A stretch of 64,000 nucleotides of DNA, taken from positions 992,001-1,056,000 of the forward strand of contig CH464491.1 of assembly GCA_000002445.1 (NCBI GenBank), given 5' to 3'. Both the position numbers and the translations under genes were made by a program. How positions within the stretch are numbered: position 1 is the stretch's first letter; every line of letters starts with the position of its first letter. This document shows positions 1 to 53,602 of this stretch, in pieces. This DNA is from Trypanosoma brucei. Lineage: Eukaryota. The notes under the pieces were generated by a model. That model had not been told where the DNA came from. It saw nothing but the letters and a program-made list of their open reading frames with translations, and ran no database searches.

Positions 1-597
1 TCATTGTCTGCTTTCCGGAAGGAGCCAGCTCAAGTCTTGCGGGCGCATCAGCTGCCAAAACTTCCATTACTAACTCTGTTACTGCCCTGCTAGTAATTGC
101 TTTGGACCCAGCAAGTCTTCCGGTTAGACGGGTGATGTCGTGCACACGCAGCGCCGTCGAAGCCCTTGTGGCGGTTGTACGGACGCTTCCAGCATCATCG
201 GCGGTCCGAAAGCACGTCAAGCCGCTGTTGGTACTTCTCACTTTCAACCGATTTTACGGTGAGTAGTCTCTGCTGTAGATTTCTTGTTTGTGTAGACAGG
301 CGGGTTACTGTGCCGATATAACTCTTGCCGTCACAGAGCCCTTATCCCGGCGCAAAGCGTTCCCGGGCAGCGGCAACTGTGCGTATCCCGCACTGGTGGG
401 AAGATACAAACGATATTACTGCAATAAATTTCTTTGTGTTTGAATTTGCCGGTAGTTGTTGCACTCGCCAATTCGTTGGTGATTGTTACTTCATCACTTC
501 CCTGTCTTCTCCTCACATCTATTATTCCCCTCCAAGTGTGCTCCGTCCGCGCGCAACCCAATTGAGGCCAAGGAGTGCGCTCAAGTACTGTCCAGTC

Positions 598-6734: not shown

Positions 6735-6758
6735 TATATATATATATATATATATATA
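6735..6758. repeat. (TA)12 microsatellite
   Basis: Direct reading. Confidence 0.9.

Positions 6759-9097: not shown

Positions 9098-9099
<2 letters not shown>

Positions 9100-9135
<36 letters not shown>
9100..9135. repeat. (AT)18 microsatellite
   Basis: Direct reading. Confidence 0.9.
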
Positions 9136-9136
<1 letters not shown>

Positions 9137-9470
9137 GTGATCTGTGAGCGTGTGGGTGGAGGTTGCTCATTGCGTTTATGTGTAAGATTGGAAAATGAGG
9201 GTACTTGAAGTTCTTATCACTCACAAAAAGGGATTTGGATAGCGCTTCGCGTGGTGAAATAAAAAACGATGTATTCATCCCGTGTTCATTGGCATTAAAT
9301 TCTGCACGAACACGCAGAGCGGCTCTGTCGAGTCAACATTAAGCGTGACATGCGAATGGGGAAATGTGATATCGCTATTGAAAAATGAATATGCTACCAA
9401 CGCGTTCGGATGTTGCAATGCAAGTTTTATATTACCCTTTTCCTGCATATCATTTGTAGCCGTCGCCATG

Positions 9471-34547: not shown

Positions 34548-35420
34548 ATGTCGACAAAGCCAAAACCTTTAGTCATTTTGGTTGTGGGAATGGCAGGCAC
34601 CGGCAAGACAACGCTAGTGCACAGGCTGCAACACTACGCCGAGGAGAAAGGTAAAAAGACGTATTTCATAAATTTGGATCCGGCAGTTGCGGATGTTCCT
34701 TACGGCGCCAACATCGACATTCGTGACACAGTCAACTACAAGGAAGTTATAAAACAGTATCGACTGGGACCCAACGGTGCTATCATGACATCGTTGAACC
34801 TGTTTGCAACGAAGTTTCACCAAGTCATTGGTATTCTTGAAAAAAAGGAAGGTCTTGAGTGGATCGTTGTGGATACGCCTGGTCAAATCGAAGTTTTCAC
34901 TTGGTCAGCATCGGGGCAAATAATCGCCGAGTCCCTGGCGGCCACGTGGCCAACAACACTTTTGTTTGTCGCTGATACAGCCCGCTGCGCAAGTACACAG
35001 ACATTCATGAGCACCATGCTATATGCGAGCAGCATCATGCTGAAGCAGCAGCTCCCGCTCGTCCTTCTCTTTAATAAAACGGATGTCGTTTCTTCAGATG
35101 CCGCAGTGACTTGGATGAAGGACCCGAATGCGTTGGCGGAAGCGGTTAACAGCGGTACGGATGGGAGTTACGCAGGGAGTTTAGTCCAATCCCTCTCCCT
35201 TTTCACGCACGGCTTCTACGAAAGCATTCCTTTTGCCAGCGCATCTGCTGCGTCAGGAAAGGGCATAGAGGAATTGGAGGAGGCCCTCGTAGTTGCGAAA
35301 GAACAGTATTTAAGGGACCGCGCGCCGCGAGTCGGCGAAAGAGAAAAGTTGGCGAATGAGGACGCGATTGCCGCGGAAGATATGATTCGCGCGTACCGCG
35401 AGGACCGGAAGAAGGATTAA
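34548..35420 (+). CDS. GPN-loop GTPase (XAB1/GPN1-like ATP/GTP-binding protein)
   Basis: Walker A VVGMAGTGKTT, the GPN-loop YRLGPNGAIMTSLNLF, and VDTPGQIEVF plus NKTD G-motifs. Confidence 0.85.
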   Translation: MSTKPKPLVILVVGMAGTGKTTLVHRLQHYAEEKGKKTYFINLDPAVADVPYGANIDIRDTVNYKEVIKQYRLGPNGAIMTSLNLFATKFHQVIGILEKKEGLEWIVVDTPGQIEVFTWSASGQIIAESLAATWPTTLLFVADTARCASTQTFMSTMLYASSIMLKQQLPLVLLFNKTDVVSSDAAVTWMKDPNALAEAVNSGTDGSYAGSLVQSLSLFTHGFYESIPFASASAASGKGIEELEEALVVAKEQYLRDRAPRVGEREKLANEDAIAAEDMIRAYREDRKKD

Positions 35421-38400
35421 ACTACCCAGCTGCTAAGTCAATGCATGTGAAGTGGGGTATCGTTTAAGGTGTTTTCATACCACATCCCTCCCTTGAGTCT
35501 GTAAAGCTTATGTTCATTTTTTTTTTTAACTCGTTTCACTGCACAATTTTCCTGCGGCACAAGGCACGCCGCCTTTTCTCTTCTTTTTTTTTTCGTTTTG
35601 TCATAGTGCCGTCTCTCTGCAGTGGGAATGAAACATTACGAAGCCCAAAAAAGGTGGGAGCTGGTGACGGGCCTTCACGTCAAAGGCAAAGTGTGTTATT
35701 TCACTGAAGGTATAGAAAATCAAGGAATCGGGGAAAAGCAACCGCTTTTTATGGGAATTGGTTGGCGGGGTCCATTCGAGGTCACCTCAACTGCGGGGCA
35801 ATGCCGGGCGGCTGAAAGAGGACCGGTACATTAAATGGCGCTAGGCTTCGCGTCATGTTGGTCGAGTCTAGGGTCTCGCTATCGAATTCCAACACACCAC
35901 CACAACCCCACTAGGAACCAAACGCAGAAATGATGATTATTATTATTATTAAAAGTTCTTGACAAACATTTGGTCGAGAAAAAAAAAACGAACAACATTT
36001 AAACGTGTAATGCTGTCGAAGTCCCGAGTACGGTCACTACAGGTGAAAGGCGAGTTGCCTGTGATTCACATTGCACTAGCGGTCTCCACACACACACGAA
36101 CACGCAGAAAAAAAAATAGAACGCTGCGCCGCCATGGGCAGAAGCCGGTGTTGTTGTAAGTTTTCTGTAAGCATGCATAATGATAGGGCGTGTGGACATT
36201 TGTATATTCCTTTTTTTCCCCCACGCTTTTGCTGCACAGATAGCGCTGTGGTGGCACAGCTCATTCAAATGGCTTTCAGGAAGGTTAGGTTGGCCACGGT
36301 ACCGTTTCCCCCCTCCAATTTCGCCACCTGTGACATTTAAGCGCGCGGATGGGGGGCTGTCAGTGCTCTTACCGTAAGTAACTGCGGGTCCTCCTCCCCT
36401 CCCTGGCCGTGTGCTCATCTTGGGTGCCTCATCAGCCCTGCTTTTCCGACAATGCGGCACCTGAGTGCATGGCGCTGGTGCATCATCCAACCATCCTTTT
36501 CCACTTCGTTCCTTTCCGCTTGGGGGCTTTGCAATGGCCGCGTTAGCTCCAAGATGAAGTTTCCTGGCGTGCTGCCATAGTCCCGTCTGTGCTCAGCAGG
36601 GCTTTCCACATTAATTCGACATCATATGTTTTTACCGAAAGGCCACTCAGGGGCGTTGCCGTTGCTTCCTCATGTTGTTCTCTTTGCTTCTTTCCTTCTA
36701 CTGTCTCCTCCGCCCTCCCTAAGACCTATTGAGCTGGTCGGTGAATAACCACGCCGCGGCAGCACTCGATCACTGCGGACTCGGTGCTATTTAAAGTGAC
36801 TGATTTTGTAAACTTCCTGCCACACCCCCCTCGATGCGCCCTGAGCCTACCCTTTTCACCCGTGGGGTCGAGCACACTGTTATCCCGTGTCAGGAATATG
36901 GCAACCGTGCTCCATTCGCGGCTCTTCTTCGCAATCGCCACTCTGTAGGTTTCCCTTCAGTCTCTCCCGTGTTGGCGACACCTCATTTATCAGGAGGAGT
37001 TTCCAATCCGCCTGAACTGTTAGTCGTGCTATGAGTCACCGTTTTCAATTTTTCCGCAAGCCCCTTTTCGGGACTCCGGTGCTCATGTCAAATCACTTCC
37101 CTTTCTTTACATAACACGCGGCCGACGGGGCTGTGGCGTCATCGTGTGTCGCTCCGCTTTGCGCCCGGTGTCAAGGAAATGCAGCCGCAGCTGAGGATTC
37201 CGGACGACACAGGAATGCCTTGCAACCCTTCCCTGAGGTGCCATGGGCTTGTGGTCGTATGTTGTTTTGAGAGATCGCCTGCTTTCGCTCGGCCAATTTT
37301 CCAGCTTCATTCCGCACCACTGATACGACCGCCTTGCAAATGGTCATCTTGGTGGTGTTAAACAGCTTCCGGACTTCGTTCTGCCTTTTCCCGCTCACCG
37401 AACCTCGGGAGCGCCCGTGCGCCACATTGAATTACACAAGCCCGAGTACTGACGGGCGGATGCGGCACTGTCCGTGACAGTCATGTTTACAAGGAGGTTT
37501 TGGGCGCCTTTTTGCCCTGTGCCAGCACTGGTGCCCGCACGCGCTTTTCGGCCACATCGTTTGCTGCTGAGTTTCATCCTGACGATAAAAAATGTTTCGG
37601 GGCATATGACCGTGCCTCGGATTCTGGCAGTGCTCCTATTCCGGGGCGGCCGCATTGTGGTTAGTTCGTTGGGAATTATGACGGGCCGGCTGCTCACCAC
37701 TTCTTCCCCTCGACCGCCTCACCGTGTGCACCGGTTTCGGCGCTTATTAGGGGCGATCGCTCTTCGGTATCGCCCAAAATGTTTCGTGGTGCGGGCACGG
37801 AATGATTCAGAGATAGTTTTTCCTGCCCTGCTGAACTTCCCCTTCTTCGGTGCAGGCTTATAGTTACCGCGGTTGCCTCTGCGCGTGCTTGGCCCTAATC
37901 CGGCTTCGAATGTAGCGTGTGCCTCTTTGTGCTTCTGCTTTATGTCTCCCACCAAAATATCAACTTTTATATGTTAGGTGTGTTTTTGTGCAGTTGTTTC
38001 TTCCACTGCAATCTCATCTGCTATTGCACTGTCTTTCCAAACAACGTGGTGGGAGAAATAAGCCGCATAGAAATCACCGCATTCTTTTTACTGATTGTGA
38101 AAATCACCCTTCCATACGCGGCTCGGGATTTCATCCTCCACGCGACTGTCTTTCATTGTTTCCAGTACCGTATTTAGCACCTTTTCAATTGGCACTGCTT
38201 CTGCACGATGGTTGCATGCCCATATTCAGGTGTCCCTTTAATTCTGTATTTTTCCGTGTTGCCGAAGATTATCATTTCTGCAGTGGACTAACTGCCTAAA
38301 CTCACCAGTTCATCTGTTGAAACTTTTCAGTCCTTGTTGTATATCCCTATTTTTTGCGGCGTATGAGCCCTCCTCCATCCGTCTGTTGCGTTTGCTTTTA

Positions 38401-40218
38401 TACCCACCCATGGAGGGCAATTTTGTGCACACTCTGGGACCAGCGTCCAAGGAGCTTTAAGTGTGGAGTACACCTTGATTTTTGGTGTCGGAGCACCATC
38501 CCTCCACTGAATTCAGCCATTCAAGTATTGGATTGTTTCGCGGACATCACCGGCTTACTATGCTTGAAAAGCGCCCTCTTTTAGCGTTTGACATGGGGCG
38601 GTATTCCGTCGTCCTCTTGTTTGCCGGTTTTCAAACAAATATCAGTCGTGCTTTTTTGAGCATGTCTTGTTTGTTCGAGTCCGAGGAAACCACAGCAATG
38701 ATTTGAACTGATTCAGCTTGCGCGCTTTCCGTCTTCCTCCCTTTCAGGTAGAGACATGAGAATCGCCTAAGAGCGACGCCGTAGTTTATCTTTTAGTGGA
38801 CGATTCCGTAGTGGAAGGCTGTAAACGCTTTCTTCCGTGGAGCACCGTTCAGCTAACACTACGGCATTGAGCCTCTCTAAACTTGTTCTTTCTGATTTTG
38901 TCGTTTGGTGAGCATGCTTTTCAATCCTTCTTTCAATGGGTGCAGTGTGGCCCGCGGGCTTTTGGGTCTTTGCATCGTTGGCCATTTTTCCTCGTCAACA
39001 TGAGGCCTTGTGGGTTCCAGATGCCTAATCCAAGTGCTGTGTGCCCCGTCTTTTCCTCCAGCGCTTGCGTATAGCATCTTAGCGGCTGTCGCGCAAACAC
39101 TCTTTCTCCGCTGCGGCGCACCTCCCAGTTTGTTTTCGTCCGAATCCGTCGCTTTGAGGATCGGATTCCTGGTAAATAAACTATCGTTGGGTCCTGGGGT
39201 CTTATTCAGTTCCGTGCTCAACGTTTCCATCGCTCTAAGAAATAGGATGCAGCCTAACGCCGACACCCGAAGAAACCCACGCGTCAATCCCGCGTTCGTC
39301 GAACTCTATAGTCGTTGTCATGATCTTTCTTGTTCAGTGAGGCGGGGAGTTGCTTATCCACCATGTTGGATGTGATATCTACTTTGAACCACCCCATCAC
39401 TCGAGCAACGTAGCTGCGACCCCACTCAATTAAGCCCCATCAAAGAGTTTATAAACACTGCTGCAATTAAGGAACTGTTTTCCTTCGATCCGATAGCACT
39501 CAGAAATTCTAAAACAGAATTAGCGCTGCATATTCATCGTTGGAAACCTGACTATTGTAGCTGAAGCGGCTCTCAGAGGCAGTTTTTTTTTCACTCTACC
39601 AAGTGCCACTCTTCGGATGACACCGACCGCGGTGCCGTCTGGCGCCAGCGGTTGGGATGATTCAACGCCTTTAGCTGATTTGTTCTGCTTAAAGAATGGT
39701 ACTATGGTCCCTCTTGGCTGCTCAGGGAATTTGTTCAACCTTTGGAAGCGGCTGTTAAACTAAGGTAAGAACCACCTTTAACGCTCCCCGGTATGAATTC
39801 CGTTGCATCCAGTCGCCGTCCACACTATATAATTTCCCCGTTACTTTCGATTCGCCACGAAGACGCCATGAATACACAACTGCGCGACTTTAAGGGCATT
39901 AGTGGAACGATTCGTATACTTGTCTGCCAAAGCCCGCAGCCGCCGCCCTTTCGTCGGTGGGTGACTGGTCATTACACTGGAATGGGGGCGGATGGCGGTC
40001 ACAACGCAAATACTGATTTTAGCAGCGCTCAGGTGTTCTTCAGGGTGGATTGTTTCGAGGCGTCCTGCCTCCCTGTCCCTAGAGCTGTTTCGGTTAGCGG
40101 ACTCTTTCTTATTTCGGTGAAGATAGTTCTCTTGGTCGACTTCCTATACTGGTTCATTCTGCTTTCAGGGGTTATCAGTTCTGCTGCTCTATCGAAGGTC
40201 GTTCGGCAGCGGTTGCCG

Positions 40219-40230
40219 TTAGAGTTTCCC
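40219..40230 (+). repeat. Left 12-bp target-site duplication (TTAGAGTTTCCC) of RIME insertion
   Basis: Identical 12-mer recurs at 40736-40747, immediately after the element poly(A). Confidence 0.8.
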
Positions 40231-40735
40231 CCTGGCGATGCCGGCCACCTCAACGTGGTGCCAGGGTCCAGTACCCCGTATCATCGGGGGAAGCCAAGAG
40301 CCAGCAGCGTTCCTTTCATGGGGAACACTGCTGTGCTCCGGCTACGGCATCATACAGCACAGGGATCAACAGCGTCTTGCTGGGACACTGTTTTTCATTT
40401 GTCGGTCCCTGGGCACGTGCCAGCGTGCCATCAGCAGTATCATCCGCGCTAAGATGCTGCTGTCCGGTGATGTGGAACTCCAAAAAAAAGAATTGCCAAT
40501 TGGCATCTTTTGGAGAGTCCGGAGTGGGGGGCTTCTCGCTCCATCTGCTGTATTCCGTTCATGTGCGGAAATACAACAAAAAATTATAGAGGGTGTGTCA
40601 GGATGAATGAAAAAGGGAGACTCTGCCACAGTCGCCAGACCGATAGCATCTCAGGGCTCTACGGTGATGGCTGATGGCCGCGCCAGTGGGGGGAAACTCT
40701 CATGAAGGCACGAAGAAAATTTCAAAAAAAAAAAA
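40231..40735 (+). mobile_element. RIME-type non-autonomous non-LTR retroposon (ingi/RIME family), complete copy with poly(A) tail
   Basis: The 5' end CCTGGCGATGCCGGCCACCTCAACGTGGTGCCAGGGTCCAGTACCCCGTATCATCGGGGGAAGCCAAGAGCCAGCAGC matches the conserved ~79-nt signature of trypanosomatid ingi/RIME/L1Tc elements, recalled from memory. Total length is ~505 bp, ending in A12 at 40724-40735. It is flanked by perfect 12-bp direct repeats. Confidence 0.78.
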
Positions 40736-40747
40736 TTAGAGTTTCCC
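40736..40747 (+). repeat. Right 12-bp target-site duplication (TTAGAGTTTCCC)
   Basis: Direct repeat of 40219-40230 abutting the poly(A). Confidence 0.8.
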
Positions 40748-43700
40748 GACTCTTTCAAATTTACCTCATCGCAATGCTTAAGACATGCGTCCTCTGTGGG
40801 AAGATATTTTAATCTAGCTACTCTTTGCCAGACCGGGGTTTCTTCATTAGCAATTGCTAAGACCAGTTCCATTTGCCAATCCACTATGAGCTCACCGCCC
40901 CTCTGAAGCACAGGACTCTCAGCGGCACGGCGATGGGCCCGTTTCCACTTCGGTGCCTGGTGGGTTTTGATTCCCGCTCGGTTGCTCCTGCTTCTCACTG
41001 ATTACGTTAAGACTCTTGGGGGAAACGCACGGAGGTCACAGCGAGACGTCGGTTGTTTGAAAACACCGGCGCAACGATTGCGCTTTCTAAAAGTCCTGTT
41101 GTCTGCGGACTCCTGAAAACAGTTAATCTATCTCGAGGGAGTGCTGAAAATCCTCCGCCTTCTGTTTTGGGGCGGGCCGCCCCAGTGCGTTGGTAGTGAA
41201 TGAGACTGTGTGCCGTACCCTCCCCAGCTTTCATGGACGCCTCCTGCGCCGGATCGGAACCCGCCGCGCCCACGTGGGCCGCTGTCGGCAAGGGCGGCTG
41301 TTCTCCATCTAACGGTGCTTTCGCGTTCCATTGACTTCGCCGGAGGATGGGGTATTGTGGTTCATGGGAATCCCAGCCACGAAGGGAAGGGGGCTCGAGA
41401 AACAGGGAGCGGCGGAGCTGTGTGTTTGCAGTTCCGGGGGCGGTTGCTTAAAGGGTGGGTCTTTCCTCCACGTTATCCCTTTCCAAAAAGCCGCTGCCTG
41501 GCCGCCGCGGAGGTTACCGGTTCAGGGTCAGCGAGAGGTTGGCTTTTGGCTTCGTTTTCACTAGCCGGCTGCCGGTGCCAGTTCATCGGATGGGTTGCAG
41601 TATCACGTGAAAGGACGTTCTCTCGCGTGCGGGAAATCGTTGTGCGAAAAGGTCGGGGGAATGAACCTTGCCAGTGGTATGCCCTCTACCGCTGCCGTCC
41701 TTGTGGTCTTGCAATGCTTTGACCTGTGGGCACGGTTGTTTTCGTTTGGTTATTGATGACATATGCCCACTTTCATCAATCCGCTTCGAGGTGTGTATGG
41801 TTCGCGCGTGGAACGGCTTTGGCTTCTACATTTTTTTAAAAAGTTTGACACTGTCTTCTCAAGTTACTTGGATTTCGTATTTGGGAAAGACGCTGGTGAT
41901 ATATTGTGGTTGTTGTTATACTGGTTGGAGATCTAATGCTCAAAGTAACTATTAATTATTACAACTCGATAAAAAAAAATGTCCCGAGGGTGCTAAAGGA
42001 TATGTATAAATGATGAAGCTTTCAAACGATTTCCCTCTGACTTTGTTCGGCCGGTTGTTCAGGCGTTTTGTAAGATTTTCATTGTTGCGAACAACTATGC
42101 TTGCTTTCCTATTGGTCTATGAGATGTGAAGCTATGGGGATACCTTTGCTTGGGATTAATAAAAAAGACTACTATTCCGTCGCAAGATTCTATTTTTTTC
42201 CCCCCTCTCTTTTGCGTGTATTTTAGCCCGGTAGGTTGTTTTTCTGGTGGTCATATATGATTTTATCTCATGGTGGTGTCGCAACCGATTTTGCTTAAAT
42301 CATATGGTTCATATTTCTTAGTGAAATATTTCTTTTGTTTAATACAGGAATACAGGCCAGTCCGTGGCATGTAGCGCATGCACTGATGAGGTCGCCGTTG
42401 TTCCGCCTCCGTGATATTGTGGAGGTAAGAGTTTCCCAAAATGTCTTCGAACCCTCAATGTAGTTAATGAATATTTGGGAACGGTGCGTTGTTGCTCCTT
42501 AGGGTGGATAAGGGCCACCTGGCGAATGCTTAGCGGTTTATCTTAAGGGCCTGAGGTTGGGGATGGGGACACACATCTAATTTGTAAGTGTTTTACACAC
42601 TTTTCTGATTTTGCTTTTGAGGGAAAATTGTTTGCGTCCCTCAGTGGGCAAAAAGGCGCTTAAACTCATTAGGCCACCATATTTTAAATATTGTGATCAA
42701 TGATGTTAAATATAGGTAAACTACTGTGCCCTCGCTTGACTCAAGGAGTTCAACCAACGATGATTCCACTGCCAATGACAAATGCATGTTCGAAACAAGA
42801 GGGGATGCGGTCGTTTTTCCGCGGGCGGCGTGCAAAAAAAAAAAAAAGGACGGCGAAGTGCAGTAACAACAAAACACTTTATAAAAATAATGCCACTCTC
42901 AGCGACACGTGCTGCTAATAGAGATGGTGCTACCCCTTGGATAATTATCCGTTAGCATGGCCACTGTGCCCACTTGTTGTCATGACTCTGTTGGGCTGTC
43001 ATCTTAACTGTTTGCCTTACCGATAGGTGCCCGTGAGGCATATCCGTAACAAGCAGTTGCTTATTCCTTTTCGTCTGGGTTACTTTCCAACAAACAAAAT
43101 TTGGTTGTACAATGCGCATCGTGAGGCTTCAGCAGAGGAACGACATCATTTCCTATTGAGGATTGTATGCTTGTACATAAAATATGTGAGTGCGTTTGAT
43201 TTTTTTTAACCTTTAAGGACAAATTAGTAGCATCCGTAGCAAAGGAGTGAATGTACAAGTGTCGGTGTGAATATAATTTCTCGTTATTCACATCGCTTTT
43301 TTGGGATGACTAAACCGCTGCGTGTATTGGCGTATCGGGTTATGCTGATATAGTTTTGATGTAATGCGGTCTAGTTTGTTGGACACATGTTATTGTGTTG
43401 GACTCGAATTTGGTGGTTTACTGTTTCGGTTCTTTGAATATTTTCATTGTGGTCCGTACAAAAGTTTTGGTCAGTTATATGTGGAGGGTTGTTTAAAAAT
43501 ATTTTCTCTTCGTTACTTTTTTGTTTTATTTACAACTGCTATAATCCTATTTCCCCATTTTACCTCTTGATAGAGGTATTTTCAAAGCAATTATTAACGG
43601 CGAATACACGACATCACCATCGATTGTTGACGGGCGAGTGTTTACACTTGGGGTATACTACTAAGTGAGGCCGAGTTTGATTATTTCCCCATGTGCTGTG

Positions 43701-45042
43701 ACGTTTCTATTGTGTTAGTTTTTACACTGGTCATATACTTAAATATTATACATTATATATATATACATATATTAAATTTTGAACCTGCGTCGCATCTTCT
43801 TCAGGAAAAAATTTTCTTACTCCCAATTCTGATAGTTATTTGCATTAATCGACCAGGCGTTTGTTGTGGAGACTGTTCTTTGGTCCTTGTTAATGGATCT
43901 GTGGTCAGGTGTGCGCGTGCATGCTATCTAAAATTTGATGTTTGCATGAATCTTGGGGGTCATATATTGACGAAGATAAAGATTCTGTTCATGGAATTGA
44001 GGTACGTAATTTTTGTGCTTTTCCGATCCGGTTATTACCAAATGACAGAAACACTGTTGTATTGCCACTTCGCGTAGGGGCGTTCAATTTCTAAATTTAT
44101 ATGTTTTTGTATCTGGTCCCGTGCCTAGCCAAAATTATCCGACGCTTCCGCTGATAATGATGTTGACCATTTCCTGTGTGGAATGGAAAGTATTCTCTTA
44201 ATGCTCAGCCGTCCTAGGGCCCCACCGTACTTTTCTAAAAAAAAGAAATGATGGTGACGAGGTGTTGTAGGTTGCGTATGAGGCGAATCGGTTGAGTGCA
44301 AAGACCTGTTGTCACTTGAGGAAGACGGTTTTATGCGTGGCTTTCCTTTAAACTGTTGGGAGGTTTGAGGCAGTCGATGCGATACAGAGCCTTCTGGGTG
44401 CTTGTTTGTTGTGAATATATTTTTTAATTTGTGTTGGATTGACACGATGGGTCGCCACGGTGCCAAGTGATGTTCCTTCTACTTTTGTGTTAGGAAAATA
44501 TCCTCTGTTAACTACATGTCTACCGTTGACTTTATTAATGGTGTGATGCCTAGCGTCGTCCTAATTGTTCTCTGTGGGTGATGGTTGGAAGAGGGTAAAT
44601 ATGTACGCATAGTTTCGTCGTTGAATTTGTTTTCCACTGTACGTGACAACAAGTGTACTGTTTTCTCTGATGCAAGGTGAGCAAACTCGGCTGTGCTTTT
44701 TATATGTTTTAGCTTCTTCAACATATACATATATTTAAGGTAAGTACACCTGGAAGAACGTACAATACTTTGCGTATTTTCTTTTTTAATGACTATTCCG
44801 ATCTTGACATACAACTTGTTTGTCTTTACTTGCTACGTTGTTGCGGCGGAACCATCGGGAATGTGGCATATTCTTTTTTACACCCTTTGTTTAGCTAAAA
44901 GTGTTGTGTCGTTATCCTATGTCTTGTTCTTTTGCCTTCTCTACCTGTTCACGCAGTTTATTAGACGGAAAGGAAAGAGAAGGATCACACATATTTGTTG
45001 GGCACCGCAAGAATAGGAGCATACGCTGAAGAGAAAAGTAAG

Positions 45043-47658
45043 ATGTCCACGATCGAACGGGATACTCTCCCAAGCGATCCAACACCGCACCACTACAAAG
45101 TCAGTATTGTTCCTGACTTCGAAACGTTCAAGTTCACCGGTCATGTTGACATAAAGATAACCGCCGAAAAACCTCAACAGAAAATCACTCTCAACTATAG
45201 TGATTTAACGTTTGTGAAAGTAAGGGTTACGCCAGGGGGGAGTGCATCGGAAACAGAGGAACTTCCCGCGGAATCCATAAGCCTCGACAAAACCGGGATG
45301 AAGGCAACGTTTTCTTTGCACAAGGCATTTCAAGGAGAGGCAACACTCTCGATTGATTACACGGGAATCATAAATGACAAACTGGCAGGATTTTACAGGA
45401 GCAAATACACTGTTAACGGAAAGGAGTCGTATATGGGGACAACACAGTTTGAAGCTGTTGACGCACGCCAGGCAATCCCCTGCTGGGATGAGCCTGCAGT
45501 GAAAGCTGTGTTTGAAATAATTATAACTGCTCCTTCGCACCTAATGGTGCTATCCAACACTCCATCTTACAAGAAGGAGGTGGTTGATGATAAGACACGT
45601 TGGTTCTTTGAGCCCACGCCCAAAATGTCGACTTATCTTCTCGCGTGGACGATAGGTGTGTTCGAGTGTATTGAGAGGCGCATCCAGAAGGTACACAAAG
45701 GAGCAGGTGGTCAAACTGAAGAGACCATTATACGCGTGTTTACTCCTGAAGGTAAAAAGTCAAAAGCTTCTTTTGCTCTGGATGTGGCTTCTAAAGTGTT
45801 GCCATTGTATGAAGAGTTCTTCGGATCAAATTACGTGCTTCCAAAAGTTGACCTTTTGGCAATTCCTGACTTTGCCGCCGGGGCAATGGAAAATTGGGGG
45901 CTTATAACATATCGTGAAACAGCCCTACTATGTGATGCCGAATCAAGTGCGGCTCAGAGGTACTATGTCGCTCTAGTGGTTGCCCATGAACTGGCCCACC
46001 AGTGGTTTGGAAACCTCGTGACCATGCAATGGTGGAAGGAGCTCTGGCTTAACGAATCGTTTGCCACGTACATGGAGTACCGGGCGGTGGATAAGTTGTT
46101 CCCAGAGTGGCGTGTCTTCACGCAGTTCGTCCACGATGAGGTTGCTCGAGCCTTTCAACTGGATTCGATGCGTAGTTCCCATCCCGTTGAAGTGGATGTC
46201 AAATACGCTAAGGAGATCGACGACATTTTTGATGCCATTAGTTACAGCAAGGGTGGGAGCATCATTCGCATGGCAGTTAATTTCATCGGAGAGGAGGCAT
46301 TCCAAAAGGGAATGTCGGAGTATTTGAAGCACTTCGCCTATGGTAATGCAACAACGAAGGATCTGTGGAATTTTCTTGGAAATGCTGCAGGCAAACCCTT
46401 GGCCCCTATACTGGAGTACTGGACGGGGCGGCAAGGTTATCCTTACCTTATTGTTACGTCGTCACCTGACAAAAAGACTTTGAACATAACTCAAAAGCGC
46501 TTTCTAGCTACAGGTGACGTCACCGCCGACGAGGATGAAACAGTGTGGAAGGTACCTTTGCTTATCTCGACTCCGGAAGACGGGGTTCAGCGTTATATTC
46601 TTGAGAAACGGGAAAACCCAATACCGGTAAAGTATAACTCGTGGATAAAGGTAAACAGTGAGCAATCGGCCTTCTGCCGTGTCCACTATCAAGGCAACGG
46701 TTTGCTCGAAGGTTTGCTTCCCGCCATTGCTTCGAAGAACCTCTCTGATATAGACCGATTTTCTATTATTTCCGACTACCACGCCTTTGCTCGTGCCGGT
46801 TACTGCAGCACCGTCGACGTGCTCAAGATTCTTTCTTCTTATGTTGACGAAGACGATTATACTGTGTGGTGCTCCGTCGTTGGCTTTGAGAAAGAGATAC
46901 GGATGCTGGTGTCCAGCCAGGGTCGAAGTGCTGTTGATTCACTGAATGCTTTCTGTCGCAACTTGTACTCGAATGCCATGAAACGACTCGGCTACGCGCA
47001 GAAGCCTGGCGACGATAATCGTTTGACTCAACTGCGCAGCGTTCTCTTCGACAGACTCGTAACATCTGAGGATAAGGAGGCCGTTGCCTATGCTTGCAAG
47101 CTTTATGCGGAACGGCAAAAGGTGCCAATTCCTTCGGACTTGCGGTACACTGTGTACGCTACGCACGTTAAATTAAACGGCGAGCCCGCGTTTCAGGAGG
47201 TGAAGCAACTTGCTGAGGTTACTGTGGACGCGATGGAGCGGACTCATTACCTTCGTGCGCTTGCATCTTCCGAAGTTGATGGTGTGGTGAGTCAGCTCTT
47301 TCAATACTCTCTCTCCGAAAAAGTTCGGAGCCAGGACGTTTTGGCCATTCTTGGCGCACTGGCCAGCAACGCTGCGAGGGTTAAAGCATACGCCGAAGAA
47401 CTGAAGCAGATGTGGCCAAGGTTGGGGAAGGAGCTTCCCGGACTTATACTCGGGAGGGCGCTAAAATATTTGGAAAATGGTGCTGATGCAGCGGTGGCCG
47501 ATGAAATGGAACAGTTCTGGAGCCACCTTGCTGATGAAGCTAAATTCGGGATGACCCGCAGCTTCCAACAGGGTGTGGAGGGACTCCGCAACAACGCAAA
47601 ATGGGCGGCGCGAGACGTGAAGACTGTGGTCGAGTTTCTTTCGGTTGCAGCGTTATAG
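45043..47658 (+). CDS. M1-family metallo-aminopeptidase (puromycin-sensitive aminopeptidase-like); ORF 44995..47658, likely start Met 45043
   Basis: GAMEN exopeptidase motif AAGAMENWGLITYRE and zinc-binding HELAHQWFGNLVTMQWWKELWLNESFATY (HEXXH-18-E). Full ~870-aa M1 architecture. Confidence 0.9.
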   Translation: MSTIERDTLPSDPTPHHYKVSIVPDFETFKFTGHVDIKITAEKPQQKITLNYSDLTFVKVRVTPGGSASETEELPAESISLDKTGMKATFSLHKAFQGEATLSIDYTGIINDKLAGFYRSKYTVNGKESYMGTTQFEAVDARQAIPCWDEPAVKAVFEIIITAPSHLMVLSNTPSYKKEVVDDKTRWFFEPTPKMSTYLLAWTIGVFECIERRIQKVHKGAGGQTEETIIRVFTPEGKKSKASFALDVASKVLPLYEEFFGSNYVLPKVDLLAIPDFAAGAMENWGLITYRETALLCDAESSAAQRYYVALVVAHELAHQWFGNLVTMQWWKELWLNESFATYMEYRAVDKLFPEWRVFTQFVHDEVARAFQLDSMRSSHPVEVDVKYAKEIDDIFDAISYSKGGSIIRMAVNFIGEEAFQKGMSEYLKHFAYGNATTKDLWNFLGNAAGKPLAPILEYWTGRQGYPYLIVTSSPDKKTLNITQKRFLATGDVTADEDETVWKVPLLISTPEDGVQRYILEKRENPIPVKYNSWIKVNSEQSAFCRVHYQGNGLLEGLLPAIASKNLSDIDRFSIISDYHAFARAGYCSTVDVLKILSSYVDEDDYTVWCSVVGFEKEIRMLVSSQGRSAVDSLNAFCRNLYSNAMKRLGYAQKPGDDNRLTQLRSVLFDRLVTSEDKEAVAYACKLYAERQKVPIPSDLRYTVYATHVKLNGEPAFQEVKQLAEVTVDAMERTHYLRALASSEVDGVVSQLFQYSLSEKVRSQDVLAILGALASNAARVKAYAEELKQMWPRLGKELPGLILGRALKYLENGADAAVADEMEQFWSHLADEAKFGMTRSFQQGVEGLRNNAKWAARDVKTVVEFLSVAAL

Positions 47659-48223
47659 CTTTTCTTTCGCCTTCATATACGTTATTACCATTAGAATTGG
47701 CTGTTGCTAAATTAGTGGATGCAGCTGTTGGCTAAAATTAGGTGGGAAAATGAGTAAAAAACTTTAGGGATAGAAGTGAATGTAGTAAAAGGTGGCTCAA
47801 TCATGGGTAGGAAAGTAAAAACGAGTTGGATTTTGATGAAGGGGGAATATCGTCGAGGAATGGTCCATTCTTCCTCGTCGCGATGATTTCGTAGTGGGCA
47901 CGTGCCACAGTGCTTCTGGCGGGAGAGTGGGTTTGTCAGGAGGTGCGGCGATAAAGGAATAGTTGTATTGGGTGTATACACGTATACTTGCACACTTGTT
48001 TCACACCAACGCTTCATCACTTTTAGGTTGTCGACATTTTTTCGCTTTAGGTAAGTATCCATATTACCTTTAGTGTTCTGCTTTACCTGTGATGCTCATC
48101 TACACCTTGCATCCACTTTTCTGTCACTTCAGTGTGTTGGTACTGTGCTGACCTATATTTGTTTTACTTTGCCTCTCTGTTTGCAAACCTGGGGCGCTGG
48201 AGCGAAGAAATAGGGCGGAGGCG

Positions 48224-49537
48224 TTGACCATGACACACAACAGGAGCGGGGCTGTTCGAAGGAAAGTCGTTCAACACGACTTTTATGATTCAGCTGACCA
48301 GGTTGGTGGAGTGGTGTTGCTGAACAACCCTACCAACGGCTCCTGGGAATATGATGAGTACCTTCGGCTGCTCACAACCAAAAGGTACTCTCGTATTCCT
48401 TCGTGGGAAGCACATTCCACTGCGCAGTGCTACTTTGTCTGCGCTGACGGTGTATATCCTAAACTTCAGTCATACGTCAAGGAGCGGCAGGTGAGCCATC
48501 CGCATCTTCGGTTGTTTCAATTTTTTCCTCTATGTGATGCTGTCATCGGTGATATGGACTCTTATGTCACTTCTTACGAAAAGGATGGTTGTGAAAGGCC
48601 TTCATCAACTCCAGAGGGCGGTTACGGCACTGTGGACGATATCCCTGTTGAGGTACTGGACACGATCCATCACAGGTGCCGCTCTGCGGCCGCGCTTTTT
48701 CGGGAGGTGGATGGGAGTGTGCCGGACACGCCACTGAATGGATGGAAAATGTTGCATGAAGAGCATTCCCACCCGTTACTTCGTCCGCTTTGGCTGCATA
48801 TCCAGTGCCAGATTACGACGGACTTCAAAAAGGCGCTGACACTCCTGAAACGGCTGCGCAAGCGGTACCCTGACGAGAACGCTGTCGTGTTACCTCCTGT
48901 TCTGCGTTCACCTGGTGCCGCGCGTATACTGGAAACCGGTGGCGGTGTTGTGGACCAAAGAAACTGCGGGTGCGACAACGACCCGATCCAGGAGCGTGAG
49001 CTGTGCGTTGCGGCCAGCCAGGTTGAAGCATTACTTCTGCCCACCGTTGTCGCTGTCGGTGCCTTCGGTGGTCGCTTTGACCACGAGGTGGGAGCCATCT
49101 CTACGATGCTTTCTGAGAGTCATGATGCACATATAGTGCTTATAAATTTGTTTAATACGGTGTTTGCGTGTCAGGGAGGTGGGTGGACACAGATTGTGCG
49201 GCAACCCGAGTATGAAGACAAGACTTGCGGTCTTGTAAACTACGGAAGAATGACTGAGTGCGAGACGAGTGGTTTGCTCTGGAATGTTGTGAAGGGCAGG
49301 GGGAGGCCAAGTGTTACAAACGATTTCGTTTTCGACTTTGGGGCGTTTATTTCCGTCTGCAACATTGTTCGCCGCGAAGTTATAACGGTTGATTTGCGGT
49401 GCCTTTTAACGAGTGTGGGGGAGTCACCTGCGGATGCGACGACCGCTACAGGCGCTTCTGATTGCGAAGCGCAACGCGGTCGTGGCCCACCTGTAGTGTT
49501 CTCCATACTTCGGCGGCAAAAAAAGGAGGGGGGCTAG
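48224..49537 (+). CDS. Thiamine pyrophosphokinase-like protein
   Basis: VIGDMDSY (compare TPK GDFDS) and VAVGAFGGRFDHEVGAISTM (compare TPK LGGLGGRFDQ). At 437 aa it is longer than canonical TPK. Confidence 0.6.
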   Translation: MTMTHNRSGAVRRKVVQHDFYDSADQVGGVVLLNNPTNGSWEYDEYLRLLTTKRYSRIPSWEAHSTAQCYFVCADGVYPKLQSYVKERQVSHPHLRLFQFFPLCDAVIGDMDSYVTSYEKDGCERPSSTPEGGYGTVDDIPVEVLDTIHHRCRSAAALFREVDGSVPDTPLNGWKMLHEEHSHPLLRPLWLHIQCQITTDFKKALTLLKRLRKRYPDENAVVLPPVLRSPGAARILETGGGVVDQRNCGCDNDPIQERELCVAASQVEALLLPTVVAVGAFGGRFDHEVGAISTMLSESHDAHIVLINLFNTVFACQGGGWTQIVRQPEYEDKTCGLVNYGRMTECETSGLLWNVVKGRGRPSVTNDFVFDFGAFISVCNIVRREVITVDLRCLLTSVGESPADATTATGASDCEAQRGRGPPVVFSILRRQKKEGG

Positions 49538-49967
49538 GTGCGTGTTTTCTTTGAGCTCTATTCGTCCTTGTTTTATTTATTCATCGTTTTCCTTGTGTTT
49601 GGTTACCCTGCTGTACACGAGAGTCCCACCAACATTGTACTGATATTTCCATCTTTTTTAGCGTTTCATTCTTAAACGCACCGTTTCTGGAGTGCGTATC
49701 CACGGCAATATAAGAAAACTTCACGAGTGCTAATGGGTGATCCTATCGATGATTTATTGCACCATTTTTAACGGCCATTTATTCGGGTATTCTGATCTTT
49801 TCTGTAAGTGTGTAATCTACTGCTGTCAACCGTTCTTAGGTGATAACGTCTGCGATTGTCTTACAGTATACCCATGTACATTTACTTTCAACATTCCCTT
49901 GTATATGTGTTACGTGCCTGTGTATGCGACATCCATACCATACATAAAACAGAAAGGAACCTGAAAC

Positions 49968-50789
49968 ATGGCCAAGAAGCACCTAAAGCGCCTGTATGCC
50001 CCCAAGGACTGGATGCTGAGCAAACTCACTGGTGTGTTTGCCCCTCGTCCACGTGCTGGTCCCCACAAACTACGCGAGTGCCTTTCGCTTCTGATTATTA
50101 TTCGCAACCGGCTGAAGTATGCACTAAATGCCCTCGAAGCGCAGATGATCCTTCGTCAGGGACTCGTGTGTGTAGACGGCAAGCCCCGCAAGGATGGTAA
50201 GTACCCAGCCGGTTTCATGGACGTGGTGGAGATTCCCAAGACGGGCGACCGCTTCCGCATCCTATATGACGTGAAAGGACGCTTTGCGCTTGTCCGCGTG
50301 AGCGAGGCTGAGTCGAGCATCAAGATGATGAAGGTTGTCAACGTATACACCGGCACGGGACGCATTCCTGTTGCTGTGACACACGACGGCCACCGGATTC
50401 GCTATCCCGACCCCCGTACGAGCCGTGGAGACACTTTGGTGTATGACGTGAAAGAAAAAAAGGTTTTGGACCTAATCAAGATTGGCAACGGCAAGGTTGT
50501 GATGGTGACAGGTGGTGCCAACCGTGGTCGTATTGGAGAAATTGTGTCCATTGAACGTCACCCTGGCGCCTTCGACATCGCCCGCCTCAAGGATGCGTCT
50601 GGTCACGAATTCGCAACTCGTGCCACAAACATTTTTGTGATTGGCAAGGACATGTCGAGTGTTCCAGTTACGTTACCTAAGCAACAGGGTTTGCGTATCA
50701 ACGTGATTCAGGAGCGTGAGGAAAAACTCATAGCCGCCGAAACACGCAGAACAACTCAGGCGCACAGCAAGCGAAAGACTAAGGTGTAA
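49968..50789 (+). CDS. RPS4: 40S ribosomal protein S4, copy 1
   Basis: 273 aa, MAKKHLKRLYAPKDWMLSKLTGVFAPRPRAGPHKLRE... is a canonical eukaryotic RPS4 N-terminus, with KOW-like and S4 domains. Confidence 0.95.
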   Translation: MAKKHLKRLYAPKDWMLSKLTGVFAPRPRAGPHKLRECLSLLIIIRNRLKYALNALEAQMILRQGLVCVDGKPRKDGKYPAGFMDVVEIPKTGDRFRILYDVKGRFALVRVSEAESSIKMMKVVNVYTGTGRIPVAVTHDGHRIRYPDPRTSRGDTLVYDVKEKKVLDLIKIGNGKVVMVTGGANRGRIGEIVSIERHPGAFDIARLKDASGHEFATRATNIFVIGKDMSSVPVTLPKQQGLRINVIQEREEKLIAAETRRTTQAHSKRKTKV

Positions 50790-51037: not shown

Positions 51038-51859
51038 ATGGCCAAGAAGCACCTAAAGCGCCTGTATGCCCCCAAGGACTGGATGCTGAGCAAACTCACT
51101 GGTGTGTTTGCCCCTCGTCCACGTGCTGGTCCCCACAAACTACGCGAGTGCCTTTCGCTTCTGATTATTATTCGCAACCGGCTGAAGTATGCACTAAATG
51201 CCCTCGAAGCGCAGATGATCCTTCGTCAGGGACTCGTGTGTGTAGACGGCAAGCCCCGCAAGGATGGTAAGTACCCAGCCGGTTTCATGGACGTGGTGGA
51301 GATTCCCAAGACTGGCGACCGCTTCCGCATCCTATATGACGTGAAAGGACGCTTTGCGCTTGTCCGCGTGAGCGAGGCTGAGTCGAGCATCAAGATGATG
51401 AAGGTTGTCAACGTATACACCGGCACGGGACGCATTCCTGTTGCTGTGACACACGACGGCCACCGGATTCGCTATCCCGACCCCCGTACGAGCCGTGGAG
51501 ACACTTTGGTGTATGACGTGAAAGAAAAAAAGGTTTTGGACCTAATCAAGATTGGCAACGGCAAGGTTGTGATGGTGACAGGTGGTGCCAACCGTGGTCG
51601 TATTGGAGAAATTGTGTCCATTGAACGTCACCCTGGCGCCTTCGACATCGCCCGCCTCAAGGATGCGTCTGGTCACGAATTCGCAACTCGTGCCACAAAC
51701 ATTTTTGTGATTGGCAAGGACATGTCGAGTGTTCCAGTTACGTTACCTAAGCAACAGGGTTTGCGTATCAACGTGATTCAGGAGCGTGAGGAAAAACTCA
51801 TAGCCGCCGAAACACGAAGAACAACTCAGGCGCACAGCAAGCGAAAGACTAAGGTGTAA
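51038..51859 (+). CDS. RPS4: 40S ribosomal protein S4, copy 2 (identical protein)
   Basis: Encoded protein is 100% identical to copy 1, with 2 synonymous nt differences. The flanks are unrelated. Confidence 0.95.
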   Translation: MAKKHLKRLYAPKDWMLSKLTGVFAPRPRAGPHKLRECLSLLIIIRNRLKYALNALEAQMILRQGLVCVDGKPRKDGKYPAGFMDVVEIPKTGDRFRILYDVKGRFALVRVSEAESSIKMMKVVNVYTGTGRIPVAVTHDGHRIRYPDPRTSRGDTLVYDVKEKKVLDLIKIGNGKVVMVTGGANRGRIGEIVSIERHPGAFDIARLKDASGHEFATRATNIFVIGKDMSSVPVTLPKQQGLRINVIQEREEKLIAAETRRTTQAHSKRKTKV

Positions 51860-51980
51860 CGGCTAAATTCACATACAGTTACTTTCATTCTTTACACACC
51901 ACCTTGATCAACTGCACATATTAAATACTTGCCTGTAAAATGAGCAGTATCATCCCCACTTAAGGAAACTGTAAGCTTAG

Positions 51981-52008
51981 TCACTTCCCTCCTTTCTCTT
52001 TCTTTTTG
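51981..52008 (+). promoter_or_regulatory. Polypyrimidine tract plus downstream AG: probable trans-splice acceptor of transporter gene (repeated in each unit at 54960.. and 57932..)
   Basis: tcacttccctcctttctctttctttttgt followed by an AG (gaAGgttaaAG) lies about 130 nt upstream of the ATG and is conserved in all three units. Confidence 0.45.
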
Positions 52009-52151
52009 TACGAAGGTTAAAGCCACAAGACTCTCTTACTGAACTCAGGCAAGTGAACAACACCGCACTAAACCAGAATCGCATAAGTTACATCCACTAT
52101 CCATCCACTCGGGTTTAACTGAATTGCATCGCTGGATACCTTTCGTGTGCA

Positions 52152-53459: not shown

Positions 53460-53567
53460 GTACGCTTAATGGAGGAGCCGCCTCTCACTAACACCACTTT
53501 GTTAGTACGTGACGTGTTTTAAGTGATGGAGCATCGTTGATGTTTTATCAAAGATACTATCTTAACT

Positions 53568-53568
<1 letters not shown>

Positions 53569-53598
<30 letters not shown>
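53569..53598. repeat. (TA)15 microsatellite in transporter intergenic region (11 repeats in unit 2 at 56549-56570, absent in unit 3)
   Basis: Direct reading of tatatata...; repeat count differs between array units. Confidence 0.9.

Positions 53599-53602
<4 letters not shown>

What the first reader, a model, noticed from the sequence alone, without database searches (positions are those of the whole stretch)
40219..40747. Complete RIME-like retroposon with perfect 12-bp target-site duplications
A ~505-bp element begins with the conserved 5' signature of trypanosomatid non-LTR retroposons (CCTGGCGATGCCGGCCACCTCAACGTGGTGCCAGGGTCCAGTACCCCGTATCATCGGGGGAAGCC...). It ends in an A12 tract and is bracketed by identical 12-mers (TTAGAGTTTCCC at 40219-40230 and 40736-40747). 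Size, poly(A) tail and 12-bp target-site duplication are the classic hallmarks of RIME, the ingi deletion derivative mobilised in trans. Perfect duplications and an intact tail suggest a relatively recent insertion, so the empty site may still exist in other strains.
Basis: partly seen in the sequence, partly recalled or inferred. Interest (0 to 1): 0.75.

Follow-up and report, generated by a model that had tools for sequence, protein, structure and literature searches.

The report
RIME retroposon insertion, polymorphic between strains
This is an ordinary copy of RIME, the well-known 0.5-kb non-autonomous retroposon of Trypanosoma brucei, lying between two genes on chromosome 11 of the reference strain; a related strain still has the uninterrupted target site, which proves it arrived by insertion, but nothing about it is new.

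Summary
TTAGAGTTTCCC occurs exactly at 40219-40230 and 40736-40747, bracketing a 505/506-bp element that ends in A12.

- The window is T. b. brucei TREU927 chromosome 11.
- The element matches independent ~503-508-bp RIME copies end to end at 93-96%. Each of those copies has its own 12-bp duplication.
- Its two halves match the two ends of a 5,254-bp ingi.
- Nothing else in the window is related to ingi.

The decisive evidence is a clean empty site in T. equiperdum OVI (...GCCG TTAGAGTTTCCC GACTC...), with the 12-mer present once. T. b. gambiense DAL972 and T. b. equiperdum BoTat carry the same insertion with the same duplications.

"Recent" needs qualifying. The insertion predates the split of those three lineages, and the copy is about 3% from a small paralog consensus, which is typical for the family.

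One refinement: all copies start CCCTGG, so the true 5' end is C40230. One C is therefore ambiguous between the duplication and the element.

Side observations:
- The deletion junction cuts the ingi 2A motif.
- A GGNTG motif lies upstream of the duplication.
- The orthologous RIME copies diverge about five times more than their flanks.

This is a textbook element in a fully annotated reference genome, so interest is low.

The parts
40211..40215 (+). GGTTG, an upstream motif 2-3 nt before the target-site duplication. It is the presumed part of the ingi endonuclease recognition site.
   Evidence: GGNTG sits in the same register (2 nt before a 12-nt duplication abutting CCCTGG) in 5 of 8 RIME/ingi copies examined, and GGTTC in a sixth. 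The binomial P is about 1e-10. The literature states that a conserved motif precedes Tbingi/TbRIME (PMC3820030). The published consensus itself could not be retrieved.
40219..40230 (+). 5' copy of the target-site duplication, TTAGAGTTTCCC. The last C is ambiguous with the first base of the element.
   Evidence: The 12-mer is present once in the empty allele of T. equiperdum OVI.
40230..40735 (+). RIME retroposon. It is 506 bp if counted from CCCTGG, or 505 bp from 40231.
   Evidence: It is 95.7% and 93.1% identical end to end to RIMEs in L003 and L002, and no other ingi-related DNA is present in the window. GC is 53.2% against 48-49% in the flanks; the published RIME value is 53.8% (PMC2323293).
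40230..40308 (+). 79-bp signature (Pr77 hallmark). In the L1Tc/ingi clade it is described as an internal promoter and an HDV-like ribozyme.
   Evidence: It is identical over these 79 nt to the L003 RIME and nearly so to the other copies. It starts CCCTGGC like the L1Tc Pr77 primer, and CGTG lies at +25..+28 (PMC4748587). Function is taken from the literature and was not tested here. Rfam gives no hit, and the nested fold is not unusually stable.
40254..40257 (+). CGTG, the downstream promoter element of Pr77, at +25..+28.
   Evidence: Position read. The motif and its position are as described for L1Tc/ingi/RIME in PMC4748587.
40230..40477 (+). 5' half, equal to the first ~248 nt of ingi.
   Evidence: It is 97.6% identical to L004 6993-7240, the start of a 5,254-bp ingi.
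40238..40606 (+). Residual 122-codon ORF. It consists of the ingi N-terminal leader ending in a truncated 2A motif (MLLSGDVE at 40454-40477), followed by out-of-context 3' sequence.
   Evidence: The ingi-encoded proteins P0003 and P0004 continue ...LLSGDVEENPGPSLRGMQWNCAG, while the RIME copies read ...LLSGDVELQKK.
40478..40735 (+). 3' half, equal to the last ~257 nt of ingi, beginning at the A-rich junction CTCCAAAAAAAA.
   Evidence: It is 90.3% identical to L004 11992-12247, the 3' end of the same ingi. The same junction is present in independent RIMEs L002 and L003.
40724..40735 (+). Poly(A) tail, A12.
   Evidence: The orthologous copies in DAL972 and BoTat read A10TA.
40736..40747 (+). 3' copy of the target-site duplication, TTAGAGTTTCCC.

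Best explanation
A full-length RIME lies in the sense orientation within a 9.5-kb gene-free stretch of a + strand polycistronic unit on T. b. brucei TREU927 chromosome 11. RIME is the non-autonomous, internally deleted derivative of the ingi non-LTR retroposon.

The inferred mechanism is target-primed reverse transcription.
1. A RIME RNA was copied into this site using the endonuclease and reverse transcriptase of an ingi expressed elsewhere. The RNA's 5' end was defined by the Pr77 promoter or ribozyme, and its 3' end was poly(A).
2. The bottom strand was nicked at the left edge of TTAGAGTTTCC(C), a few bases downstream of a GGTTG motif.
3. The top strand was nicked about 12 nt further on.
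4. Fill-in of the stagger produced the duplication.

Shown here: the element's identity, its precise boundaries, the pre-insertion allele, and the fact that the insertion is shared by some Trypanozoon lineages and absent from another. Inferred from the literature: mobilisation in trans by ingi, the order of the nicks, and the promoter and ribozyme roles of the first 77-79 nt.
For: - Source genome: the flanking proteins are exact matches to TREU927 entries EAN79325.1 and EAN79326.1, on a 5.26-Mb contig.
- Independent copies: end-to-end identity of 93-96% to RIMEs at other loci in T. b. gambiense. Each has its own 12-bp duplication, TGAAAAAAGATT or TTTAATTATTTA.
- ingi ends: the halves 1-247 and 246-503 map to the two ends of a 5,254-bp ingi.
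- Coding capacity: no endonuclease or RT coding sequence. The longest ORF is 122 aa, and tblastx finds only the ingi ends.
- Empty site: T. equiperdum OVI has the single 12-mer and continuous flanks.
- Filled orthologous site with identical duplications in DAL972 and BoTat.
- The OVI haplotype is 1.2-4.6% diverged around the site, against 0.1-0.7% for the filled haplotypes. This fits ancestral absence.
- Upstream GGNTG motif in register.
- Literature definitions: 0.5 kb, an ingi lacking its central 4.7 kb, a 79-bp signature, an A-rich tail, a 12-bp duplication and an upstream endonuclease motif (PMC2323293; PMC3820030).
Against: Nothing contradicts the identification. The caveats are these:
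- The published ingi4 upstream consensus could not be read. The motif test therefore rests on eight copies gathered here.
- The OVI assembly is fragmented around this locus, with N gaps and a contig end in RIME sequence. However, the empty junction itself lies in uninterrupted sequence.
- Neither ribozyme nor promoter activity is detectable computationally.
- The 5' boundary is ambiguous by one C.
Confidence: 0.97

Rival explanations
1. The 0.5-kb element arose in place, by internal deletion of a full-length ingi that had inserted here, rather than by retrotransposition of an already deleted RIME RNA.
For: The junction lies in an A-rich stretch (CTCCAAAAAAAA against ingi ATCAAAACAAAA), where slippage or recombination is conceivable.
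Against: The same junction is present in independent RIMEs at other loci (L002, L003), each with its own duplication. It is also present in all three orthologous copies. The deleted form therefore propagated as a unit. No allele with a full ingi at this site was seen.
Confidence: 0.02
2. The empty site in T. equiperdum OVI is secondary. It would be either a precise loss by recombination between the two 12-mers or an assembly artefact, so the insertion would be fixed and older than it appears.
For: The OVI assembly is a scaffolded draft with gaps 0.8 kb upstream, and a contig end runs into RIME sequence. A diploid heterozygote could have had only its empty allele assembled.
Against: The empty junction is clean to the base, inside 10.8 kb of continuous alignment. 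Assemblers do not remove a repeat together with exactly one duplication copy. The OVI flanks form a distinct, much more diverged haplotype, as expected if the insertion happened on the other haplotype lineage. Heterozygosity in OVI would still mean that an empty allele exists.
Confidence: 0.07
3. The copy has been co-opted by the host, for example as a promoter, ribozyme or siRNA source that affects the neighbouring aminopeptidase or GTPase genes. In that case it would be maintained for that reason.
For: It is retained in three lineages and lies in sense orientation inside a transcription unit. Pr77 has promoter and ribozyme activity in related elements (PMC4035085, PMC4748587). Retroposon transcripts are controlled by TbAGO1 (PMC3447711).
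Against: An allele without it exists. The orthologous copies diverge faster than the flanks, not slower. No expression data were available here.
Confidence: 0.05
4. The two 12-mers are a chance or locally repeated sequence, and the intervening DNA is not a mobile element.
For: None found.
Against: See for the lack of background repeats. The empty site and the family matches also argue against it.
Confidence: 0.003

Closest known systems
TbRIME (ribosomal mobile element; Hasan et al. 1984), the non-autonomous partner of Tbingi in the ingi4 subclade
   Same: Length of about 0.5 kb, made of the ingi 5' ~250 nt plus the 3' ~250 nt. It has the 79-bp signature, a poly(A) tail, a 12-bp duplication, an upstream motif, GC of 53% and a Trypanozoon host. 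Divergence from the consensus (about 3%) is close to the family median of 4% (PMC2323293).
   Different: Nothing of substance. The 5' junction shares one C with the target, and the tail is A12 here against A10TA in the two orthologous copies.
Tbingi, the 5.25-kb autonomous non-LTR retroposon
   Same: The first ~248 nt and last ~257 nt, including the N-terminal leader codons up to LLSGDVE.
   Different: [quoted passage not shown] The 2A motif DVEENPGP is cut after DVE.
NARTc/L1Tc of T. cruzi and the SIDER/DIRE degenerate relatives
   Same: The Pr77/79-bp hallmark at the 5' end, an A-rich 3' end and a 12-bp duplication (PMC3820030, PMC2323293).
   Different: NARTc is a 0.25-kb 3'-deleted derivative of L1Tc in another species. 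SIDER and DIRE elements are degenerate (8-18% or more from their consensus), whereas this copy is 97.6% identical to an ingi 5' end.

Membership tests
TbRIME | About 0.5 kb, consisting of the 5' and 3' ends of ingi with the central 4.7 kb missing | tested here: met
   Element positions 1-247 match L004 6994-7240 (97.6%) and 246-503 match L004 11992-12247 (90.3%). These are the two ends of a 5,254-bp ingi. The definition comes from PMC2323293.
TbRIME | 79-bp signature (Pr77 hallmark) at the extreme 5' end | tested here: met
   The first 79 nt are identical to the L003 copy and nearly identical to the other RIME/ingi copies. It starts CCCTGGC, and CGTG lies at +25..28 as described in PMC4748587.
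TbRIME | 3' poly(A) tail | tested here: met
   A12 at 40724-40735.
TbRIME | 12-bp target-site duplication generated by insertion | tested here: met
   Exact 12-mers, of which 11 nt are unambiguous and 1 is shared with the element start. The 12-mer is present once in the OVI empty allele. The 12-bp rule comes from PMC3820030.
TbRIME | Conserved motif upstream of the duplication (ingi4 endonuclease site) | tested here: inconclusive
   GGTTG at 40211-40215 fits a GGNTG motif found in register in 5 of 8 copies gathered here. The published consensus exists only in a figure or in papers not held, so no comparison with it was possible.
TbRIME | No coding capacity for endonuclease or reverse transcriptase | tested here: met
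   The longest ORF is 122 aa. The homologues found are short ORFs at RIME/ingi 5' ends. tblastx with a whole ingi hits only the two ends.
TbRIME | Host is T. brucei sensu lato (Trypanozoon) | tested here: met
   The flanking proteins are exact matches to T. b. brucei TREU927 entries. Orthologous loci were found in DAL972, BoTat and OVI.
TbRIME | Mobilised in trans by ingi-encoded proteins | not testable with these tools
   Past mobility is shown by the presence/absence alleles. The source of the enzymes is inferred from shared ends and the shared upstream motif (literature).
HDV-like ribozyme / Pr77 promoter (L1TcRz type) | Self-cleavage immediately 5' of nt +1, and internal promoter activity | not testable with these tools
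   No Rfam family matches. The nested MFE fold is not unusual, z = -0.61. By eye, helices CCCUGGC/GCCAGGG, CCAC/GUGG and CCCCG/CGGGG can be drawn. Activity is reported for clade members in PMC4035085.
Tbingi (autonomous) | 5.25 kb with a long ORF encoding endonuclease, RT and RNase H | tested here: not met
   The element is 506 bp and contains no internal ingi sequence.
TbSIDER / DIRE (degenerate relatives) | Highly degenerate sequence, 8-18% or more from the consensus, usually with decayed duplications | tested here: not met
   The copy is about 3% from the paralog majority and has perfect duplications.

The most novel reading that the evidence does not exclude
Two features are not explained by the standard picture.

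1. The three orthologous copies of this one insertion differ from each other about five times more than their flanks do. The differences are clustered, and in the gambiense copy the variant bases are those carried by paralogous copies. This would fit ongoing ectopic gene conversion among dispersed RIME/ingi copies, that is, concerted evolution seen at a single dated locus.

2. The target sequence AGAGTTTCCC is perfectly complementary to a conserved segment 35 nt from the RIME 3' end. This could mean that RNA-target pairing helped to choose this site.

Either could instead be an assembly artefact in repeats or a coincidence.
Probability: 0.2. Interest if true: 0.35.

Novelty: already known. Interest (0 to 1): 0.12.

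Why it matters
It matters little beyond bookkeeping. RIME has been known since 1984, and all ingi/RIME copies of the TREU927 reference genome are reported as identified and annotated (PMC2323293). The variable positions of mobile genetic elements already underlie a strain-typing PCR (MGE-PCR; PMC4183442 cites Simo et al. 2005; that its primer is RIME-based is from my memory).

What this locus adds is a clean, sequence-verified presence/absence marker on chromosome 11. It is filled in TREU927, DAL972 and BoTat and empty in T. equiperdum OVI. It separates the two "equiperdum" lineages and gives a dated reference point for looking at sequence exchange among RIME copies.

Tried and rejected
- Rfam at gathering and at permissive thresholds found no HDV-like ribozyme or other RNA family in the element. 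The weak miRNA-like hits are chance-level.
- A nested RNA fold of the first 79 nt is no more stable than shuffles. It cannot represent the double pseudoknot anyway.
- An exact look-up of the aminopeptidase through the look-up of encoding contigs found nothing.
- A homologue search with the 219-aa flank-into-RIME ORF aimed to find more filled or empty alleles in public assemblies. It returned only the BoTat orthologue and unrelated RIME-containing ORFs.
- The Bringaud 2004 and 2009 papers with the upstream consensus are not held.
- A search for MGE-PCR plus RIME found no paper.
- I looked for extended homology between the target flanks and an inverted RIME 3' end, in case the target was an old RIME remnant. 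None exists beyond the 10-12 nt match (by eye).
- I looked for other ingi/DIRE remnants in the 9.5-kb gene-free gap. None was found.
- The inverted RIME sequences near window-equivalent 39405-39419 in the OVI assembly could not be resolved because of N gaps and a non-homologous left flank.

Full report
**Observation.** Reading 39900-41100 shows the sequence ...GCCG TTAGAGTTTCCC CCTGGCGATGCCGGCCACC... on the left and ...GAAAATTTC AAAAAAAAAAAA TTAGAGTTTCCC GACTC... on the right. The 12-mer is exact at 40219-40230 and 40736-40747. A12 lies at 40724-40735, and the enclosed element is 505 bp. The 41-nt 5' signature occurs once in the window and never in shuffles. TRF finds no tandem array in 39000-42000, and the direct repeat is exactly 12 nt long. 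In the non-tandem part of the window only four exact 12-mer pairs lie 300-700 bp apart, and the other three are simple sequence.

**Source and context.** All ORFs above 180 aa lie on the + strand, as in a trypanosomatid polycistronic unit. The aminopeptidase (44995-47658) and the GPN-loop GTPase (34548-35420) are exact matches to T. b. brucei TREU927 proteins EAN79326.1 and EAN79325.1, on a 5.26-Mb contig. The window is therefore TREU927 chromosome 11. The consecutive accession numbers indicate no annotated coding gene in the 9.5 kb between them. The element lies in that gap, in the sense orientation of the unit.

**Identity.** The 122-codon ORF that starts in the element finds only Trypanosoma proteins, mostly short "hypothetical, unlikely" ORFs of T. 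brucei subspecies. I fetched the DNA behind three of them and ran BLAST.
- The element aligns end to end with a 503-bp copy on T. b. gambiense chromosome FN554969 (95.7%).
- It aligns end to end with a 508-bp copy on FN554964 (93.1%).
- Each of these copies is flanked by its own perfect 12-bp duplication, TGAAAAAAGATT or TTTAATTATTTA.
- In a T. b. equiperdum locus, positions 1-247 match at 97.6% and positions 246-503 match 4.75 kb further on at 90.3%. These are the two ends of a 5,254-bp ingi whose internal ORFs carry endonuclease and RT domains.
- BLASTN and TBLASTX of that whole ingi against the window hit only 40231-40733.

This is exactly the published definition of RIME: 0.5 kb, an ingi lacking its central 4.7 kb, a 79-bp 5' signature, an A-rich tail and a 12-bp duplication (PMC2323293; PMC3820030). 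GC is 53.2% against 48-49% in the flanks; the published RIME value is 53.8%.

**Proof of insertion.** The ribosomal protein S4 gene downstream is identical in T. equiperdum OVI, which gave access to scaffold CZPT02001941.1. There, window 39472-40230 and window 40736-50789 align to adjacent stretches that overlap by exactly 12 nt. The sequence reads ...GGCAGCGGTCGCCG TTAGAGTTTCCC GACTCTTTCAAATTTACC.... This is the unoccupied target with a single copy of the 12-mer.

Through the thiamine pyrophosphokinase gene I obtained the orthologous loci of T. b. gambiense DAL972 and T. b. equiperdum BoTat. Both are collinear with the window across the site. Both contain the RIME with the same two 12-mers, and their tail reads A10TA.

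The OVI haplotype differs from TREU927 by 1.2-4.6% per 500 bp around the site. DAL972 and BoTat differ by 0.1-0.7%. The simplest history is one insertion on the haplotype lineage shared by TREU927, DAL972 and BoTat, after that lineage separated from the one sampled in OVI.

The inference of a "recent" event is only relative. The copy differs from the majority of the paralogs gathered here at 16 of 511 columns, or 3.1%. The reported family median is 4% (PMC2323293).

**Anatomy refinements.**
- *5' boundary.* All eight RIME/ingi 5' ends examined begin CCCTGG, as does the L1Tc Pr77 primer (PMC4748587). In L002 and L003 the verified 12-bp duplications stop before that first C. In the window there are five Cs where a 12-bp duplication plus a full element would give six. 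One C (40230) is therefore shared, a 1-nt microhomology at the 5' junction.
- *Promoter element.* Counting from 40230, the CGTG downstream promoter element falls at +25..+28 (40254-40257), as described for L1Tc, ingi and RIME.
- *Deletion junction.* It lies between 40477 and 40478. The ingi reads CTGCTGTCCGGTGATGTGGAA|GAGAATCCCGGCCCG (LLSGDVE|ENPGP, the 2A skipping motif), followed by the endonuclease start MQWNCAG. The RIME reads ...GGAA|CTCCAAAAAAAAG. RIME thus keeps the 80-residue leader and half of the 2A motif.
- *Upstream motif.* Aligning the upstream flanks of the eight copies shows GGNTG two bases before the duplication in five of them, and GGTTC in a sixth. The chance of five exact matches in register is about 1e-10. 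The window has GGTTG at 40211-40215. This fits the statement that Tbingi and TbRIME are preceded by a conserved endonuclease recognition motif (PMC3820030). I could not read the published consensus.

**Mechanism.** The element cannot encode its own machinery. It shares both termini and the upstream motif with ingi, so mobilisation in trans by ingi proteins through target-primed reverse transcription is the accepted model, and I adopt it here. In that model the first nick is on the bottom strand at the left edge of the duplication, cDNA synthesis starts at the poly(A), the second nick is about 12 nt away on the top strand, and repair creates the duplication.

Because the copy is in sense orientation within a Pol II unit, it is probably transcribed by read-through. 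For related elements the first 77 nt are reported to act as an internal promoter and, in RNA, as an HDV-like ribozyme that cuts just before +1 (PMC4035085; PMC4748587). This is not testable here. Rfam has no matching family, and a nested fold is unremarkable. Retroposon transcripts in T. brucei are kept down by the RNAi Argonaute TbAGO1 (PMC3447711).

**Unexplained details.**
- *Excess divergence between orthologous copies.* They differ at 13-15 of 505 columns, against about 3 expected from the flanks (Poisson P about 1e-5 to 3e-6). The differences are clustered at 40491-40529 in DAL972 and 40372-40424 in BoTat. The DAL972 states are those seen in paralogs. The explanations are ectopic gene conversion between dispersed copies or mixing of repeat reads during assembly. 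Three single-base homopolymer deletions in BoTat look like sequencing errors.
- *Target complementarity.* The target AGAGTTTCCC, plus the element's first CC, is 12/12 complementary to GGGGGAAACTCT at 40689-40700, a conserved 3' segment. About 0.6% of random window 12-mers share a run of at least 10 nt with the element. Other RIME duplications show nothing similar. I treat this as coincidence until it is tested on many copies.
- *A possible second RIME in OVI.* RIME sequence in inverted orientation abuts window-equivalent 39405-39419 on two OVI contigs. One junction has a GGGTC-GC motif in register. However, the scaffold has N gaps there, and its left flank is a VSG region without a matching duplication. 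This may be a second, independent insertion 0.8 kb upstream in OVI, or a scaffolding chimera.

**Verdict.** This is a genuine, complete RIME with a verified empty-site allele. It belongs to a family described in 1984 and lies in a reference genome whose retroposons have been catalogued. The finding is correct and ordinary.

Noticed in passing
window 40231-40735 versus L007 2006-2508 and L008 1985-2486: Orthologous copies of this one RIME differ by 2.6-3.0%, while 5.8 kb of flanks differ by 0.1-0.7%. The differences are clustered, and in DAL972 the variant bases match those of paralogous copies. This suggests ectopic gene conversion or repeat-read mixing in the assemblies.
   Followed up: partly
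window 40221-40232 and 40689-40700; also 40691-40703 and 40735-40747: The target-site sequence is perfectly complementary (12/12 including the element's first CC) to a conserved segment near the RIME 3' end. The chance level is roughly 0.6% for a run of at least 10 nt. Two other RIME duplications do not show this.
   Followed up: partly
window 40454-40482; L004 7220-7255: The RIME internal deletion breakpoint cuts the ingi 2A ribosome-skipping motif in two (LLSGDVE|ENPGP). Every RIME therefore keeps the ingi leader ORF and half of the motif.
   Followed up: yes
L015 4036-4460 and L001 14862-14928 (window-equivalent 39405-39419): T. equiperdum OVI has inverted RIME sequence abutting a site 0.8 kb upstream of the TREU927 insertion, and TREU927 is uninterrupted there. 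N gaps and a VSG-bearing left flank without a duplication leave open whether this is a real second insertion or a scaffolding chimera.
   Followed up: partly
window 39472-44994 versus L015 4953-9952: In this intergenic stretch the OVI haplotype is 1.2-4.6% diverged from TREU927. The upstream 14 kb of genes is 99.2% identical, and DAL972 and BoTat are 99.3-99.9% identical here. This is a locally deep haplotype split.
   Followed up: partly
window 35421-44994: A 9.5-kb stretch inside a + strand transcription unit has no ORF above 219 aa and no annotated protein (consecutive accessions EAN79325/EAN79326). It is pyrimidine-rich on the + strand at 36-40 kb (GC skew -0.07 to -0.08, AT skew about -0.2). 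Apart from the RIME it contains no ingi-related DNA.
   Followed up: partly
window 39793-40452: A 219-codon ORF runs from unique flank into the RIME 5' half. Its BoTat counterpart is deposited as hypothetical protein DPX39_110042700. It is most likely an annotation artefact created by the insertion.
   Followed up: partly
window 49968-50789 and 51038-51859: Tandem identical ribosomal protein S4 genes with a 1,070-bp period. There are two copies here and in DAL972 but four in BoTat, so the array varies in copy number.
   Followed up: partly
window 51888-59950: Three tandem units of about 2.97 kb, each with a 435-440-aa ORF. The DAL972 orthologues carry the nucleoside transporter domain PF01733. 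The third unit is more diverged (85-97%).
   Followed up: no
window 6709-6775, 9078-9138, 53542-53612, 56521-56585: Long (TA)n microsatellites lie in AT-rich intergenic stretches. GC drops to 36-42% at 6-10 kb.
   Followed up: no
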